A DNA stretch of 64,000 nt, taken from positions 64,001-128,000 of the forward strand of contig CBDCTA010000029.1 of NCBI GenBank assembly GCA_965221955.1, given 5' to 3'. Every line of letters starts with the position of its first letter. Within the stretch, counting starts at the first letter, position 1. Below are positions 3,714-39,431 of the stretch, piece by piece. The notes beneath the pieces are model-generated. The model made no database searches, was not told the DNA's origin, and was given only the letters and a program-made list of their open reading frames with translations. Made by a program: the position numbers and the translations under genes. The stretch comes from Gammaproteobacteria bacterium. Lineage in GTDB: Bacteria; Pseudomonadota; Gammaproteobacteria; UBA4575.

Positions 3714-4892
3714 ATGCTTAATGGACTAATTACTTTACCTTGGTGGGGCTACATTGTAGTCACACTAGTTCTTACTCACATCACCATTGTCTCTGTCACG
3801 CTATATCTGCATCGTTGCCAAGCTCATTGTGCACTAGACCTACATCCTCTGGTATCACACTTTTTTCGTTTTTGGTTGTGGGCGACTACAGGTATGGTAA
3901 CTAAAGAATGGGTGGCAATTCATCGCAAACATCACGCGAAAACAGAAACTGAGGATGATCCGCATAGCCCGCATACAAAAGGTATTGCAAAAGTTTTTTG
4001 GCAAGGCGCAGAGCTTTATCAAGAAGAAGCCAAAAATATGGAGACTATACAGAAATATGGTCACGGTACTCCAGATGATTGGCTAGAACGAAATTTATAT
4101 TCACGTTATAGCTTTATTGGTCTTAGTATTAGCTTTGTTTTAAATGTCATTTTATTTGGGCCTATTGGTTTGACTATTTGGGCAGTCCAAATGATTTGGA
4201 TACCATTATTTGCGGCAGGAGTGATTAATGGAATTGGTCATTACTGGGGCTATCGGAATTTTGAAACCGAAGATGGTTCAACCAATGTTATTAATCTTGG
4301 ATTTATTATTGGCGGAGAAGAGTTACACAACAATCATCATGCTTATCCAAGTTCTGCAAAGTTTTCGAGCAAATGGTGGGAAATTGATCTAGGCTGGTTT
4401 TATATTCAATTATTAAGTTTATTTGGTTTAGCAAAAGTTCGCAGACGTGCACCAAAGCCAATGCGCTTAATAAATAAAGACATTATTGATTTAGAAACTG
4501 CGAAAGCAATGGTGTCTAGTCAATTACATGTGATGGCCGAGTATGCACAAAAAGTTACTTTGCCGACTTTTCATGCCGAGCTACCCAATTTTGAAGATCG
4601 ATATAAAAAACTGGTGAGCCAAATGCGCACTGCATTAATACGTGAAGATAGCCGTATGAAGCCTTTGCATCGTGAACACTTGCAAGAACTATTACAAAAT
4701 AGTGAAGCATTGCATACTGTTTATGAATTTCGTCGTAAGCTACAAGCGCTTTGGAAAGAGACCCATGCCAGTCATGAACGCATGATTCAGGCCATTATCG
4801 AGTGGTGTAAAGAAGCCGAGGCGACCGGAATTAAAGTGCTAGAGGACTTTGCGCAGAGCTTACGAGGGTACGCATTACAGTCAGCGGTTTGA
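3714..4892 (+). CDS. desA: Membrane delta-9 fatty acid desaturase (DesA type)
   Basis: His boxes HRCQAH, HRKHH, HNNHH; DDPHSP motif; C-terminal helical extension typical of proteobacterial DesA. Confidence 0.88.
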   Translation: MLNGLITLPWWGYIVVTLVLTHITIVSVTLYLHRCQAHCALDLHPLVSHFFRFWLWATTGMVTKEWVAIHRKHHAKTETEDDPHSPHTKGIAKVFWQGAELYQEEAKNMETIQKYGHGTPDDWLERNLYSRYSFIGLSISFVLNVILFGPIGLTIWAVQMIWIPLFAAGVINGIGHYWGYRNFETEDGSTNVINLGFIIGGEELHNNHHAYPSSAKFSSKWWEIDLGWFYIQLLSLFGLAKVRRRAPKPMRLINKDIIDLETAKAMVSSQLHVMAEYAQKVTLPTFHAELPNFEDRYKKLVSQMRTALIREDSRMKPLHREHLQELLQNSEALHTVYEFRRKLQALWKETHASHERMIQAIIEWCKEAEATGIKVLEDFAQSLRGYALQSAV

Positions 4893-4956
4893 ATCTTTTT
4901 TATTTCTGGCAAGAAGTGAACGTTCAATTCACTAAATCATAGTCATCAAGTTAGTT

Positions 4957-5205
4957 GTTCGTTTTCTTTGCTTGTTCAAAGAAAACGAACCAAAAGAAAA
5001 GTGTTCTTGTAAGATTTAAAATATCAACATTAATACATTAATTACACGTCGTTCCCACCAACTTGCTCTTCGAGTACGTTCGTAATATCTAACAACCTTG
5101 GTTGGCATGATGATGTCATCCAGGCACAACATGCCTAAATCAACCATCCTTGGCTGATTTACCTGCAGTTGTTTCGAGTTTACTCACCAAGTTGAACGGG
5201 ATTCA
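4957..5205. repeat. Multi-hairpin intergenic element (MITE/REP-like)
   Basis: Perfect 14-bp stem GTTCGTTTTCTTTG/CAAAGAAAACGAAC (4957-4990) followed by CAAAAGAAAA; two adjacent hairpins with CATCC loops (5104-5135, 5136-5161). Confidence 0.55.
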
Positions 5206-5216
5206 GAAGTGCTTTG

Positions 5217-5246
5217 AATGCCTGCTTTCGGCCAATAGCGGACATT
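5217..5246 (-). repeat. 30-bp palindromic site, type B (core TGGCCG on gene strand)
   Basis: + strand AATGCCTGCTTT-CGGCCA-ATAGCGGACATT; 7 bp downstream of the stop of 5254..5712. Confidence 0.85.
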
Positions 5247-5253
5247 TAAAACT

Positions 5254-5712
5254 TTAAGAGAATAAAGCCGCAATTGATTGAAGCAATACATCAAAAGCCA
5301 CAATTGCACCGACATCCCTCCTCATCCCATCACTTTGCTTTATTTGATAGTCTCTAGAAGAATATGGCTTTTGCAAATTTGGCATTACATAATTTAATTC
5401 ACCTTTGTCGAAATAAACCCCACAACAGAATTCACAAAAATCTAATTCAATTCCACTAACCATTACAATATTTAGAGGTTTTGTATCACATAGTGGGCAA
5501 TTTCTAGTATCAGACAGATTTTGATTATCTTTAGAATATTGAACTAATTCGTCAATTTTGATTTTACTTTTCTGTGTTTCAATAAGCCTGGAAACACTAA
5601 CGCCACTAAGCCAAACTCCTTTACAGTTCTTGCATTCCTTAATAATTGTTGTATCTACTGGATAGCTAACTGATTTTGTATCCATATTGAATTTACAACT
5701 TGGACAATTCAT
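5254..5712 (-). CDS. Tandem zf-TFIIB-type zinc-ribbon protein (accessory)
   Basis: Two units: CPSC...CKNCKGVWL and CPLC...CEFCCGVYFDKGEL. Confidence 0.8.
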   Translation of the reverse strand: MNCPSCKFNMDTKSVSYPVDTTIIKECKNCKGVWLSGVSVSRLIETQKSKIKIDELVQYSKDNQNLSDTRNCPLCDTKPLNIVMVSGIELDFCEFCCGVYFDKGELNYVMPNLQKPYSSRDYQIKQSDGMRRDVGAIVAFDVLLQSIAALFS

Positions 5713-5735
5713 CTTATCAATATTACTTATCTGTT

Positions 5736-5765
5736 AATGTCCGCTTTGGGTCGTTAGCGTCCGTT
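5736..5765 (-). repeat. 30-bp palindromic site, type A (core CGACCC on gene strand)
   Basis: + strand AATGTCCGCTTT-GGGTCG-TTAGCGTCCGTT; 23 bp upstream of ATG 5712. Confidence 0.85.
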
Positions 5766-5783
5766 AAATTTTATGAAGTCGCT

Positions 5784-6019
5784 TCATTGTGTATTGTTCC
5801 CACTAAGTCTCCTTCCTATACGGATCAGAATAAAGCCAATTACAAACCCAATCCCACCAATCGTTACAATAGTTACTAGTTCTCCAACTCCCTCACGACC
5901 ACCCGTACCCTGATTGCACCCATTAAATATATCGCTCCAAAACCAAGTCCAATAGTGCCTACAGCAAATACTAACAATGCACCACTACCAATAAAGATAA
6001 TGCAAAATAGCTTTTTCAT
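5784..6019 (-). pseudogene. Small two-TM membrane protein (about 78 aa) with an apparent 1-bp frameshift near 5911; not in the ORF track
   Basis: ATG 6019 gives MKKLFCIIFIGSGALLVFAVGTIGLGFGAIYLMGAI; a shifted frame continues QGTGGREGVGELVTIVTIGGIGFVIGFILIRIGRRLSGNNTQ-stop at 5784. Confidence 0.55.
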
Positions 6020-6043
6020 GATTAGTGTAAATTTTTACTATCT

Positions 6044-6073
6044 AATATGCGCTTTGGGACATTTGATTGGCAT
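6044..6073 (-). repeat. Degenerate type-A palindromic site
   Basis: AATATGCGCTTT-GGGACA-TTTGATTGGCAT; gene-proximal arm recognisable; 24 bp upstream of ATG 6019. Confidence 0.45.
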
Positions 6074-6210
6074 AATTAATCCTTATTACTTTGATTAATT
6101 GCAATATCTTGAAGACCGCTATATGAGTTGATAGTGTAACTATTAACAGGGAGCCATAAATAAGAAGGCCGGTTGCTTAGTGGGTGATTGGCCTTTTTAT
6201 ATATAAACAA

Positions 6211-6240
6211 TTAATTATCATTCGGCCAATAGCGGTCATA
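6211..6240 (-). repeat. Type-B palindromic site (distal arm decayed)
   Basis: TTAATTATCATT-CGGCCA-ATAGCGGTCATA; 2 bp downstream of the stop at 6243. Confidence 0.75.
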
Positions 6241-6242
6241 AA

Positions 6243-6681
6243 CTAATTAAGTTTCATCATATCTAAAAAGCCAAGCTGCTTCATTGAAGTATAGTTGTCC
6301 CACTCTACCCATACCTCTACTATAATCCCGTCTTCAATTCGATACATGGCTAAATATTCAAAATCCACATCTTTATGTGAAATTGGATAAGGCCCCATTT
6401 CACCAAGTTGGGTTCCTTTAAATCTATGGCGTTGCAGCAACTTTATTTCCTTCTGCAATTAAATCTAAAATTTGATCTTTAAATTTTGGAAAAATTTTAT
6501 GTTGCGTACGCAAAAACTGAATTAAATCACCTCGGCACCTAACAACAGGTTCGCCAGCAGCAAAGCTATGTCGAATGAATCCATCAGATAAAAGATTATC
6601 AAGCCGGTCCCAGTTGTACGAGTTGATAACATCAGTATATTCGCGAACTAATGCCTTGTTATGCTCGATGTTGTTATCCAT
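6243..6681 (-). pseudogene. SnoaL-like ester cyclase (NTF2 fold), one frameshift near 6432
   Basis: HNKALVREY...LIAEGNKVAA joins RHRFKGTQLGEMGPYP...YRIEDGIIVEVWVEWDNYTSMKQLG if one A is removed from GCAACGCCAT. Confidence 0.8.
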
Positions 6682-6723
6682 ATTTAAAAACTAGCAAATA
6701 AGCTTGAATTTTAGCGAAGCCTT

Positions 6724-6753
6724 CATGTCCGCTTTGGGTCGAAAGCGGACATT
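6724..6753 (-). repeat. 30-bp palindromic site, type A (near-perfect arms)
   Basis: CATGTCCGCTTT-GGGTCG-AAAGCGGACATT; 42 bp upstream of ATG 6681. Confidence 0.9.
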
Positions 6754-6789
6754 ATAAACCAAATCATCTATCTCTTAATCGGGCATTAC

Positions 6790-6992
6790 ATCACGCTGAG
6801 AAGCGCAAGGTATTTTCAGACCAAGGCGAGCGCTGCTTGAGCGTAGCGAGTTTGCGAAGCCGTTGAAAATATCGAGCATTCGAGGTTCGAATAGCAAGTA
6901 AATGATGCTTCACAATCTGCTCAGTTATTTGCGATCTCGTGATGTTGAGCGCAATGATTTTGGGTACTTTTGGCGAAACAAAAGTACCTTGC
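6790..6992. repeat. Multi-hairpin intergenic element (MITE/REP-like)
   Basis: GC-richer stretch with TATTTTCA...TGAAAATA pairing around TTGAGCGTAGCGAGTTT; terminal 10-bp stem GGTACTTTTG/CAAAAGTACC (6963-6988). Confidence 0.5.
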
Positions 6993-7078
6993 TCTCTAAG
7001 AGCAAGTGTTGAATAAAAGAATAGGAACTTATGGAGAGAGCGAAAAAGTACTCAGTGGTACTTATGGATACAAAATAA

Positions 7079-7246
7079 TTACTTAATTTTTGCTTCTTTA
7101 TACATGACATGTTTCCTTACAACTGGATCATATTTTTTGATCTCAAGTTTTTCGGTCATGGTGCGTTTGTTTTTGCTAGTGGTGTAGTAATGTCCTGTAC
7201 CTGCACTTGATACAAGTTTGATTTTTTCGCGAACTGATTTTGCCAT
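7079..7246 (-). CDS. rpmG: 50S ribosomal protein L33 (not in ORF track, 55 aa)
   Basis: Manual translation [55 protein letters not shown]; directly downstream of rpmB. Confidence 0.97.
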
Positions 7247-39083: not shown

Positions 39084-39113
39084 AATGACTGCTAACGACC
39101 CAAAGCGGACATT
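39084..39113 (+). repeat. 30-bp palindromic site, type A
   Basis: AATGACTGCTAA-CGACCC-AAAGCGGACATT; 19 bp upstream of ATG 39133. Confidence 0.88.
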
Positions 39114-39132
39114 CTCAGGTTCCTAGTTATCA

Positions 39133-39402
39133 ATGAAAGATTTTTCAGTAGCAATATTAATTGGGCTTCTCGTCATTTCTTTACTAGGTATTGGCATAAG
39201 CTATTTTATTTCCATGCTTACAATGATATCTAATCACGATGAAGACAAAGGGTTAGTTATATTAAATTTTTTTCCTGTGTTTAAAACAGATACATTGAAC
39301 GAGAAAGGTGAAAAGGCAAGACGGGTATATAATAAATCGTTATTGGCATTTGCGATTTGGCTAATTGTCGCTTTAGCTTGCTATGTGGTTTTTAATTCTT
39401 AA
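39133..39402 (+). CDS. Small two-TM hypothetical membrane protein (accessory)
   Basis: 89 aa, hydrophobic at both ends; fills the space between two palindromic sites. Confidence 0.7.
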   Translation: MKDFSVAILIGLLVISLLGIGISYFISMLTMISNHDEDKGLVILNFFPVFKTDTLNEKGEKARRVYNKSLLAFAIWLIVALACYVVFNS

Positions 39403-39431
39403 ATGTCTGCTATTGGCCGAATGCGGACATT
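39402..39431 (+). repeat. 30-bp palindromic site, type B
   Basis: AATGTCTGCTAT-TGGCCG-AATGCGGACATT; first A is the last base of the TAA stop. Confidence 0.88.

What the first reader, a model, noticed from the sequence alone, without database searches (positions are those of the whole stretch)
5217..6753. Array of small accessory genes bracketed by 30-bp 12-6-12 palindromic sites: candidate non-integron gene-cassette system
Seen: five related 30-bp sites (5217, 5736, 6044, 6211, 6724) punctuate three co-oriented, unrelated small genes (zinc ribbon, two-TM protein, SnoaL cyclase) between desA and rpmG. The arms follow AATGTCCGCTTT/AAAGCGGACATT around a 6-bp asymmetric core. Sites lie 23-42 bp before starts and 2-18 bp after stops, leaving little room for promoters. 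Established: inverted arms around a 6-8 bp core is the layout of tyrosine-recombinase sites (dif 11-6-11, loxP 13-8-13). These arms match neither XerC/XerD boxes nor attC RYYYAAC/GTTRRRY ends. Inference: the genes are mobile cassettes handled by a recombinase encoded elsewhere. I cannot assign the site to a named system.
Basis: partly seen in the sequence, partly recalled or inferred. Interest (0 to 1): 0.88.

Follow-up and report, generated by a model that had tools for sequence, protein, structure and literature searches.

The report
Palindrome-bounded gene cassettes without an integron
The small genes between desA and rpmG sit in a decaying array of gene-sized modules bounded by two kinds of 30-bp palindrome, part of a widespread cassette-like system that has no integron integrase and that I could not find described.

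Summary
Three full 30-bp sites (5217, 5736, 6724) and two half-sites (6044, 6211) punctuate three minus-strand genes. Two of those genes are frameshifted.

The sites come in two types with the same left arm. Type A has core GGGTCG and type B has core CGGCCA. The genome holds 186 copies, almost all intergenic. A lies upstream of gene starts, B just after stops, and both follow the gene's orientation. 139 of the 186 sit in 18 clusters of three or more, with a median module of about 475 bp.

Evidence that the modules move:
- Strain-variant contigs are 99.5% identical in their flanks but carry different modules, with breakpoints exactly at sites.
- 11 of 12 relatives have desA directly beside rpmG.
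- Single modules recur A-to-B at other loci in other species.

The exact site also occurs in many copies in Alphaproteobacteria and other Gammaproteobacteria.

It is not an integron: closed, site-rich relatives lack IntI, and one relative's true integron uses canonical attC sites and no A/B site. It is not RAYT-driven REP, and the sites are unlike the genome's own dif.

The recombinase is unidentified. My best reading is exchange between like sites by a factor acting in trans. The main rival is REP/BIME-like repeats serving as portable homology.

The parts
4893..5216 (.). Left part of the lineage-specific insert. It holds another repeat (copies on contigs C5 and C18) and a sub-threshold TwoAYGGAY RNA match at 5046-5208(-).
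   Evidence: Absent from 11 of 12 relatives. Repeat copies. Rfam 31.3 bits against a gathering score of 43.
5217..5246 (+). Type B site, 2 mismatches to the B consensus. It lies 7 bp after the stop of the Zn-ribbon gene and forms the downstream end of the array.
   Evidence: Weak hairpin, z -0.2.
5254..5712 (-). Cassette 1: 152-aa Zn-ribbon protein.
   Evidence: ORF. PF13453, E 1.5e-13. Only one weak partial DNA match in 40 relatives.
5736..5765 (+). Type A site, 3 mismatches, 23 bp upstream of the Zn-ribbon start. It has no B partner.
5876..6019 (-). Cassette 2: 47-aa remnant of a 77-aa two-TM protein, frameshifted after ...YLMGAI.
   Evidence: ORF. Intact homologue inside a site array in G014, 80% DNA identity over window 5735-6035. 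One run's contig carries a 2-bp indel at 5911.
6044..6073 (+). Half-site: left arm and half the core of type A. The right arm is lost.
   Evidence: read by eye; (3 mismatches in the 16-mer).
6211..6240 (+). Half-site: core and right arm of type B, ending 2 bp after the SnoaL stop. The left arm is lost.
   Evidence: read by eye; (2 mismatches in the 16-mer). The 165-bp filler between 6059 and 6222 recurs in G004 and G002.
6243..6681 (-). Cassette 3: SnoaL-like gene split into two overlapping ORFs (6243-6458 and 6424-6681), which I read as a frameshift.
   Evidence: profile positions 2-73 and 71-126. Intact 144-145-aa homologues in G019, G024 and G015.
6724..6753 (+). A-type site with symmetric arms (TTTGGGTCGAAA), 42 bp upstream of the SnoaL start. 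It forms the upstream end of the array and a perfect 11-bp stem.
   Evidence: Fold -11.2 kcal/mol, z -4.7.
6754..7078 (.). Right part of the insert: a repeat of about 270 nt that also lies next to an A site at two other loci in this genome and occurs in many relatives.
39084..39113 (-). Type A site of a second, intact single cassette in the window, 19 bp upstream of its ATG.
39133..39402 (+). 89-aa membrane-protein cassette. By my reading of the two translations it resembles the ORF at C23:22995-23264.
   Evidence: Absent from the syntenic locus in G014; replaced by other genes in G011 and G007.
39402..39431 (-). Type B site overlapping the stop codon of the 89-aa ORF.

Best explanation
The five sites belong to a genome-wide family of 30-bp palindromes (12-6-12) of two types. 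Type A is AATGTCCGCTTT-GGGTCG-TTAGCGGTCATT. Type B is AATGTCCGCTTT-CGGCCA-ATAGCGGACATT.

Read in the sense of the gene, a module is: A, then about 20-30 bp, the gene, and B right after the stop. Neighbouring modules are joined B-spacer-A, with a spacer of 43 or 53 nt in this genus. Modules are gained, lost and swapped as units at the sites.

The desA-rpmG locus is an old, decaying array of three modules. Two of its sites are reduced to halves and two of its genes are frameshifted.

Inferred mechanism: conservative exchange between like sites (A with A, B with B), driven by a factor acting in trans. The two different, highly conserved 6-bp cores would keep modules oriented and allow cassette exchange, as heterospecific lox or FRT sites do in engineered recombinase-mediated cassette exchange.

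The enzyme is not identified. It is not IntI, a RAYT, an IS110-type or TnpB enzyme, or a reverse transcriptase. XerC and XerD are the only tyrosine recombinases common to the genus and remain a long-shot candidate.

What is shown: the anatomy, the polarity, the modular exchange at sites, the lineage-specific insertion, and the spread across classes. What is inferred: that the exchange is site-specific, and which factor performs it.
For: Anatomy and polarity:
- 186 sites lie within 8 mismatches of A or B.
- Of the 167 sites within 6 mismatches, 162 are intergenic, although a crude gene call puts coding sequence at 86%.
- With the site oriented '+', the right-hand gene is on the minus strand for 144 of 167.
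- B lies a median 11 bp from a stop (57 of 68 within 60 bp). A lies a median 31 bp from a start (51 of 74 within 60 bp).
- 139 of 186 sites sit in 18 clusters of three or more sites, and 16 of the 18 have a single orientation. 64 module intervals have a median of 474.5 bp and a range of 205-2129 bp.
- 32 A-B doublets have quantised spacers, 43 nt in 13 and 53 nt in 11, with conserved sequence.

Exchange at the sites:
- Contigs C14 and C23 share flanks at 99.5% identity but hold 4 kb against 12.4 kb of modules. C10 and C29:132-136 kb do likewise. Homology starts and stops at the 30-bp sites.
- The xerD-lptG locus varies from 0.85 to 12.4 kb across the genus.
- An OsmC-like module (C23:12699-13246) recurs from A to B at 81-87% identity in G007, G014 and G011, in other contexts.
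- desA abuts rpmG in 11 of 12 relatives, with no site there.
- The TM and SnoaL genes of this locus have homologues at unrelated loci in different relatives.

Constraint on sequence:
- Both cores are 90-100% conserved, as well as the arms.
- The stems show no compensatory covariation: observed pairing equals the shuffle control. This points to recognition of sequence rather than structure alone.
- The exact 23-mer occurs in at least 113 stretches from Gamma- and Alphaproteobacteria, Nitrospina and others.
- Three alphaproteobacterial MAGs hold 85-141 copies each, in clusters.
- In a sample of 251 genomes of the class, only G000, G014 and G038 have more than 2 copies. The distribution is patchy, which fits horizontal spread.

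Not an integron:
- IntI over cut-off was found in 1 of the 19 relatives with 11 or more sites, and in none of the closed genomes G001, G010, G014, G019 and G022.
- 0 of 5 distant site-bearing genomes have IntI over cut-off.
- In G015 the array beside IntI shows TAAC...GTTAG-type attC sites and no A/B site.
Against: - No enzyme was found. No gene family recurs near sites in 80 loci from many taxa.
- No XerD-like protein lies in 208 kb of large arrays from G043 and G019.
- The sites are unlike the genome's canonical dif, TCGCATAATATATATTATGTTAAAT.
- The one junction I could dissect (C14 against C23, first B site) fits a crossover inside the right arm rather than in the core, with one base left unexplained. 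That looks more like homologous than core-specific exchange.
- Symmetric hybrid sites, expected from core exchange between inverted sites, are rare (4 and 2 of 186).
- Not every variable gene carries sites. The SnoaL homologues in G019, G024 and G015, and the genes filling the ampD-side slot in G011 and G007, have none that I can recognise.
- The desA-rpmG insert is larger than the array and is flanked by other repeats, so it did not enter by a simple A or B crossover at a pre-existing site.
- Contigs from public runs gave no usable excision or empty-site junction.
Confidence: 0.45

Rival explanations
1. REP/BIME-like repeats. The palindromes would be extragenic repeats with an RNA- or DNA-level role in the host, such as transcript ends, mRNA stability or insulation of small genes. 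Modules would swap by ordinary homologous recombination, with the 30-bp sites and the roughly 105-115-bp doublets acting as portable homology. No dedicated recombinase would be needed.
For: - The sites are 30-bp imperfect palindromes, number in the hundreds, are extragenic, and occur in paired doublets of fixed spacing, like BIMEs and REPINs.
- Doublets fold as two separate hairpins in 3 of 4 folds.
- No enzyme is linked to the sites.
- One dissected junction suggests a crossover within an arm.
- The spacer keeps a fixed GGTTGGAA motif, which I read as a weak -35/-10 pair about 17 nt apart. Three of 35 spacers also match the IHF consensus (recalled), against 0.16 in shuffles.
Against: - A Y1/RAYT transposase was found in only 3 of the 19 site-rich relatives. 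None was found in G000 or in the closed genomes G010, G014 and G019.
- In Pseudomonas, classical REPs mark core regions, and mobile or strain-specific regions are 'REP deserts' (PMC3390384, passages read). Here the sites concentrate in hypervariable arrays.
- REP families are reported as species- or clade-specific (same paper). This site is identical across proteobacterial classes.
- The strict rule of A at 5' ends and B at 3' ends, and the conserved cores, are not explained by homology alone.
- Promoter-like and terminator-like motifs are not enriched in an array: 19 against 29.1 expected, and 6 against 3.6.
Confidence: 0.3
2. Non-autonomous transposable modules with hairpin ends, like the palindrome-associated elements of the IS200/IS605 family or another single-strand transposon. 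A transposase present only in some cells, or on unbinned DNA, would mobilise them in trans.
For: - The two ends differ (A and B), each can form a hairpin, and their orientation is strictly tied to the cargo.
- Modules appear at loci that are empty in relatives.
- The phylogenetic distribution is patchy.
Against: - No Y1 transposase, IS110-type enzyme, TnpB or reverse transcriptase was found in G000, which is 96.6% complete.
- Y1 transposases do not track site number in relatives.
- I saw no target-site pattern or duplication at the two insertions examined.
- Head-to-tail arrays with a conserved joint are not typical of transposition.
Confidence: 0.12
3. Ordinary integron attC sites, present as clusters lacking the integrase (CALIN) and left behind or inserted in trans by an IntI encoded elsewhere.
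For: - Array anatomy, module size (median about 475 bp), co-orientation and small unrelated ORFs all resemble sedentary integrons.
- Type A contains GTTAGCG / CGCTAAC, which resembles an R box (consensus recalled).
Against: - Type B has no AAC/GTT triplet.
- A and B are direct, self-palindromic units rather than one long R''-L''...L'-R' hairpin.
- IntI is missing from five closed, site-rich relatives and from 5 of 5 distant site-bearing genomes.
- The true integron of G015 uses other sites.
- Sites are abundant in Alphaproteobacteria. IntegronFinder found no integron, In0 or CALIN in 243 alphaproteobacterial genomes (PMC4889954, passages read).
Confidence: 0.03
4. dif-module-like elements. The sites would be Xer sites, with XerC/XerD moving the modules as proposed for pdif modules on Acinetobacter plasmids.
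For: - The layout is 12-6-12.
- XerC and XerD are the only tyrosine recombinases shared across the genus.
- The most variable array lies about 700 bp from xerD in every genus member with the locus. In G022 an array lies about 3.5 kb from xerC.
Against: - The arms bear no resemblance to the genome's own dif or to the conserved XerD arm TTATGTTAAAT (arm recalled; dif found).
- Both arms are nearly identical, which suggests one protein rather than a heterodimer.
- No hit for the site in 72,556 plasmids.
Confidence: 0.07

Closest known systems
Sedentary chromosomal integron cassette arrays and CALIN
   Same: Arrays of small, co-oriented, unrelated, strain-variable ORFs separated by a repeated structured element. 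Module size is similar. Content differs between near-identical strains. Site sequence is homogeneous within a lineage.
   Different: No IntI. The sites are two self-palindromic 30-mers in direct order rather than one R''-L''...L'-R' hairpin. Type B lacks AAC/GTT. There are many arrays per genome (18 clusters) instead of one platform. An A site sits right upstream of each start. The system is abundant in Alphaproteobacteria.
REP / BIME / REPIN elements of Enterobacteria and Pseudomonas
   Same: Imperfect palindromes of 20-40 bp, hundreds per genome, extragenic, in doublets with fixed spacing and a conserved linker. E. coli BIME-1 carries an IHF site in its linker (recalled).
   Different: No cognate RAYT. 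Enriched in hypervariable rather than core regions. Strict 5'/3' polarity relative to genes. The same sequence occurs across proteobacterial classes.
dif (pdif) modules of Acinetobacter plasmids
   Same: Gene-sized modules bounded by short inverted-arm sites with a 6-bp centre, shuffled between replicons, with no recombinase gene inside the module.
   Different: The arms are unrelated to dif. The arms are near-identical rather than forming a XerC/XerD pair. The system is chromosomal, absent from the plasmid collection searched, and Xer involvement is untested.
Engineered recombinase-mediated cassette exchange with heterospecific lox/FRT sites
   Same: Two site types share arms but differ in the core, and they flank a cassette so that like recombines only with like and orientation is kept. 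This is a functional analogy only.
   Different: That system is artificial. Here no recombinase is known and core-specific exchange is not shown.
Neisserial intergenic mosaic elements (dRS3 repeats)
   Same: Short palindromic repeats bound variable segments in intergenic mosaics near strain-variable regions (recalled, not checked in any call).
   Different: Those segments are non-coding repeats and are linked to IS110-like (Piv) recombinases. Here the segments are genes, and no IS110-type enzyme was found in G000.

Membership tests
Integron attC site / CALIN | Inverse core sites R'' (RYYYAAC) and R' (GTTRRRY) at the two ends of one site | tested here: not met
   Type A has CGCTAAC/GTTAGCG, but type B has CAATAGC with no AAC/GTT. 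The consensus itself is recalled.
Integron attC site / CALIN | A single imperfect hairpin pairing R''/R' and L''/L', with extrahelical bases and a variable terminal structure | tested here: not met
   Doublets fold as two independent hairpins in 3 of 4 single-strand DNA folds. A and B are direct repeats of one another. The structure definition comes from PMC4889954 passages.
Integron attC site / CALIN | Association with an integron integrase carrying the IntI-specific domain | tested here: not met
   TIGR02249 over cut-off in 1 of 19 site-rich relatives, in none of five closed ones, and in 0 of 5 distant genomes. G015's IntI array has no A/B site.
Integron attC site / CALIN | Score above threshold with the IntegronFinder attC covariance model | not testable with these tools
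   The model is a supplementary file of PMC4889954. It is not in Rfam, and supplements are closed.
REP / BIME / REPIN | Short imperfect palindrome, high copy number, extragenic, in doublets with regular spacing | tested here: met
   186 copies; 162 of 167 intergenic; 32 doublets with 43- or 53-nt spacers.
REP / BIME / REPIN | Cognate RAYT (Y1 transposase) in the genome, flanked by the repeats | tested here: not met
   PF01797: none in G000, G010, G014 or G019; present in 3 of 19 site-rich relatives and in site-free G018. Flanking was not examined.
REP / BIME / REPIN | Species- or clade-specific sequence enriched in core genome regions | tested here: not met
   The identical 23-mer occurs across classes. 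Sites concentrate in strain-variable arrays. Contrast with PMC3390384.
dif / pdif Xer site | 11-6-11 site whose arms match the XerC and XerD binding consensus of dif | tested here: not met
   The genome's own dif at C4:59807-59831 is canonical, and A/B share no arm with it.
dif / pdif Xer site | Recombination by XerC/XerD | not testable with these tools
   XerC and XerD are present and canonical. Needs a bench assay.
IS200/IS605-type hairpin-ended elements (PATE) | TnpA (Y1) or TnpB in the genome, with a fixed target motif 5' of the left end | tested here: not met
   No PF01797 or PF07282 in G000. I saw no common target motif at the two insertions examined.

The most novel reading that the evidence does not exclude
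A second, integrase-independent 'integron-like' system is widespread in environmental Alpha- and Gammaproteobacteria. Genes would be packaged between two heterospecific palindromic sites, A at the 5' end and B at the 3' end. They would be exchanged between many chromosomal arrays, and between species, by a still unknown or co-opted recombinase. This would amount to natural recombinase-mediated cassette exchange.
Probability: 0.4. Interest if true: 0.92.

Novelty: new variant of a known kind. Interest (0 to 1): 0.8.

Why it matters
Integrons are the only well-understood system that files single genes as exchangeable cassettes. They are reported as missing from Alphaproteobacteria (PMC4889954, passages read).

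A distinct site family does the same bookkeeping at dozens of loci per genome. It needs no IntI, and the identical 30-mer occurs across proteobacterial classes. If confirmed, it would be a new route of gene flow in marine and soil bacteria.

It could also explain many 'hypervariable islands' of small genes in metagenome-assembled genomes, and it would point to a new or repurposed recombinase.

There is a practical side. These repeats break assemblies: several arrays lie at contig ends and in duplicate strain-variant contigs. They also spawn spurious small ORFs, for example ORFs that start inside a site.

If the sites prove instead to be REP-like repeats used as portable homology, that still shows how short repeats can organise modular gene exchange.

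Tried and rejected
Enzyme hunts that led nowhere:
- IntI.
- Y1/RAYT.
- Serine recombinases. One 544-aa enzyme is at G000:C26:86441. The family is present in 5 of the 19 site-rich relatives and was not found in the closed genomes G001, G014 and G022.
- Reverse transcriptase, IS110-type enzymes and TnpB in G000.
- Tyrosine recombinases. Only XerC and XerD are shared. G006, at 91% completeness, shows just those two.
- All-against-all clustering of 547 ORFs of at least 120 aa from 80 loci around exact sites. No family spans more than 3 loci, and none of the listed representatives looked to me like a recombinase; they were not run against a family library.
- phmmer with XerD against ORFs of at least 90 aa from 11 array regions (208 kb) of G043 and G019. 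No hit.

RNA and expression readings:
- No Rfam family in two arrays.
- Near the finding, only a sub-threshold TwoAYGGAY match.
- Promoter-like and terminator-like motifs are not enriched in an array.
- The strict IHF consensus is present in 3 of 35 spacers.

Hairpin selection: stems show no excess pairing over a shuffle control. C7>T and G24>A behave as independent CpG transitions.

Hybrid sites from inverted recombination are too rare to argue either way.

Literature:
- Site strings and their translations appear in 0 papers.
- Keyword searches returned pdif, REP and integron papers but nothing describing this site. Apart from the two papers read, I saw only listings and the starts of abstracts.
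- Supplements were not seen, namely the REP logos of PMC3390384 and the attC model of PMC4889954. They could bear on the claims 'matches no described REP' and 'not attC'.

Plasmids and phages: no match for the 30-mer in plasmids. No match for a doublet in phages. Only two 36-bp matches, in AT-rich spacer, in two Proteus records of the plasmid collection; I take these for chance.

Public runs:
- Only assembled contigs were available, at 2-6x depth.
- The listed joints (for example 5245>5736) have sides under 30 nt with 'between: not known'. They are best read as other copies of the repeat, not as excision.
- No contig bridged an empty desA-rpmG site.
- Loose ends at the site borders only show that the sites occur in other contexts.
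- I draw no habitat or absence claim from these runs.

Ideas considered and dropped:
- DNA uptake sequences. The copy number is far too low and the spread across classes is unlike DUS/USS (recalled knowledge).
- An operator for a transcription factor. This cannot explain B sites placed after stops.

Rows dropped before counts:
- One search used the 167 of 186 sites with 6 or fewer mismatches.
- One search used the 35 of 37 pairs spaced 100 bp or less.
- Gene calls are my own crude longest-ORF set, not a gene finder.

The script machine was lost, so the planned shuffle control for loose site scans and a systematic crossover map were not done.


Full report
**What is at the locus**

Window 5217-6753 lies between a fatty-acid desaturase gene (3714-4892, +) and rpmG (7079-7246, -). 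It holds three minus-strand ORFs:
- a 152-aa Zn-ribbon protein (PF13453);
- a 47-aa membrane ORF;
- a SnoaL-like gene split over two overlapping ORFs.

Three full 30-bp palindromic sites are present at 5217, 5736 and 6724. Those at 6044 and 6211 are half-sites. Chance expectation for the full sites is zero in 100 shuffles. The 'nine sites in the window' do not: I find five full sites and two halves. The other two full sites bound a separate, intact cassette at 39084-39431.

**Two site types and a genome-wide grammar**

The window is G000:C29:64001-128000, in a 2.69-Mb assembly of 29 contigs with 38.6% G+C. The genome holds 186 sites within 8 mismatches of two consensus forms that share the left arm:
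- A = AATGTCCGCTTT GGGTCG TTAGCGGTCATT
- B = AATGTCCGCTTT CGGCCA ATAGCGGACATT

The cores are as conserved as the arms, at 90-100% per position.

Of the 167 sites with 6 or fewer mismatches, 162 are intergenic. My crude ORF set covers 86% of the genome. The sites are polar with respect to genes. With the site written '+', the gene to its right is on the minus strand for 144 of 167. B lies a median 11 bp from that gene's stop. A lies a median 31 bp upstream of the start of the gene on its other side.

Read in gene sense, a module is therefore A, gene, B. Adjacent modules are joined B-spacer-A. There are 32 such doublets, with spacers of 43 nt (13) or 53 nt (11) and conserved sequence including GGTTGGAA.

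139 of the 186 sites lie in 18 clusters of three or more, and 16 of these have a single orientation. The 64 module intervals have a median of 474.5 bp. The arrays hold small, mostly unrelated ORFs, many with membrane or signal-like N-termini.

**Modules are the unit of change**

The assembly contains strain-variant duplicate contigs.
- C14 and C23 are 99.5% identical on both flanks but carry 4.1 kb against 12.4 kb of modules between them, with one shared block.
- C10 and C29:132-136 kb behave the same way.
- In every case homology begins or ends at a 30-bp site.

Across the genus the same xerD-RDD...lptG slot measures from 0.85 to 12.4 kb.

An OsmC-like module (C23:12699-13246) recurs at 81-87% identity in G007, G014 and G011, with different neighbours. 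The homology runs from the A site to the B site.

For the finding itself, desA abuts rpmG (9-211 bp apart) with no site in 11 of 12 relatives. The twelfth, G003, has a different 4.3-kb insert. The TM module has an intact 77-aa homologue inside another array in G014. SnoaL has intact 144-145-aa homologues at unrelated loci in G019, G024 and G015.

The locus is thus a lineage-specific, three-module array that is decaying: two half-sites, two weak hairpins and two frameshifted genes. The source coverage is low, so assembly error in the frameshifts cannot be excluded.

**Distribution**

A degenerate 23-mer with up to 3 mismatches is present in all 14 other species of the genus (1 to 231 copies). 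It is also present in five other genera of the family and in one genome of another family. The reversed-pattern control gave 0-1 hits.

The exact 23-mer occurs in at least 113 stretches of the species-genome collection. By their record titles these include:
- gammaproteobacterial MAGs, including Woeseiaceae and Thiotrichales;
- Lysobacter dokdonensis and Aidingimonas halophila;
- Alphaproteobacteria, including Caulobacteraceae and Xanthobacteraceae;
- Nitrospina.

A few hits are probably mis-binned contigs. Three alphaproteobacterial MAGs carry 85-141 copies in clusters of tens of kb. They show the same doublet-then-gene layout but a 15-nt spacer and lineage-specific core variants.

In an even sample of 251 genomes of the class, only G000, G014 and G038 have more than two copies. 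The family is therefore patchy and shared across classes, which argues for horizontal spread and strong sequence constraint.

**What it is not**

*Integron.* No IntI over cut-off was found in G000, in the five closed site-rich relatives, or in 18 of the 19 relatives with 11 or more sites. None was found in 5 of 5 distant site-bearing genomes. G015 has both the sites and an integron. Its IntI-adjacent array shows TAAC...GTTAG-type attC sites and not one A/B site. Type B lacks the AAC/GTT triplets, and doublets fold as two hairpins rather than one. Cury et al. found no integron, In0 or CALIN in 243 alphaproteobacterial genomes (PMC4889954, passages).

*RAYT-type REP.* Y1 transposases are missing from G000, G010, G014 and G019 and do not track site number. 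Classical REPs mark core regions, while mobile regions are REP deserts (PMC3390384, passages).

*dif-like.* The genome has a canonical dif and canonical XerC and XerD. The A/B arms are unrelated to that dif.

*Other.* There is no Rfam family and no presence in the plasmid or phage collections.

**How it may work**

These facts fit exchange between like sites by a protein acting in trans:
- arms and cores are conserved in sequence;
- the stems show no compensatory covariation;
- there are two core types with a fixed 5'/3' assignment;
- orientation is kept within arrays;
- variable segments are bounded by B on one side and A on the other.

The two cores would act like heterospecific spacers.

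Against this, no enzyme co-localises with the sites. No known mobile-element enzyme family fits. The single junction I could dissect suggests a crossover within an arm.

Homologous recombination using the sites and doublets as portable homology is therefore a serious rival. The spacer's fixed GGTTGGAA motif, about 17 nt from a CAAAAT that overlaps the A site (my reading), hints that doublets may also carry a weak promoter. The generic scan shows no enrichment, however.

**Verdict**

The 'mobile cassette, not integron' reading is supported in anatomy and comparative behaviour. The 'tyrosine recombinase' step is unproven.

My searches found no description of this site family, and I could not see supplements. 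I rate it a new variant of a known kind (cassette arrays / structured extragenic repeats), with a substantial chance of being a new recombination system.

Noticed in passing
window 39084-39431: A second, intact single module: A site, 19 bp, an 89-aa membrane-protein ORF, then a B site overlapping the stop. It lies between a gene I read as pyridoxamine-phosphate-oxidase-like and a gene I read as ampD-like; both names come from the translations, not from a family search. The syntenic slot in G014 lacks the module and keeps only a partial B-like remnant. G011 and G007 hold other genes there, without recognisable sites.
   Followed up: yes
window 6754-7078; G000:C29:464066-464341; G000:C2:219980-220254: A repeat of about 270 nt with long internal inverted repeats lies directly next to an A site at three loci in this genome and recurs in many relatives. 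It could be an array 'leader' or an unrelated MITE.
   Followed up: partly
G000:C23:23275-23398, C10:3652-3775, C22:~167016-167129, C29:~609583-609697: A third composite, made of an A site, a conserved 64-nt element and a half A site, marks the upstream end of arrays at four distinct loci. Two further hits are strain-variant copies of the first two.
   Followed up: partly
window 3714-4892: The desaturase has a C-terminal region (residues 272-386) matching the ISL3 transposase family PF01610 (E 1.3e-10). The whole protein is conserved across the genus at 76-88% identity.
   Followed up: no
window 5046-5208 (-): Sub-threshold match to TwoAYGGAY RNA (RF01731): 31.3 bits against a gathering score of 43, E 0.031. 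It lies just beyond the terminal B site.
   Followed up: no
site positions 7 and 24, genome-wide: The commonest site variants are C>T at position 7 and G>A at position 24. Both are CpG transitions and occur independently of each other. This hints at cytosine-methylation-driven decay rather than stem maintenance.
   Followed up: partly
G000 contigs C14/C23, C10/C29, C11/C26, C19/C3, C24/C6 and others: The assembly contains duplicate strain-variant contigs at 90-99.8% identity. This fits the 4.3% contamination estimate. Several of them break at site arrays.
   Followed up: partly
L012, L046, L155 and window ORF 5700-5879: Sites generate spurious ORFs that start at the ATG inside the palindrome (MSANDPK..., MTAYDPKRT...). 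By recollection, similar peptide starts are common among 'hypothetical proteins' of Alphaproteobacteria. This was not checked.
   Followed up: no
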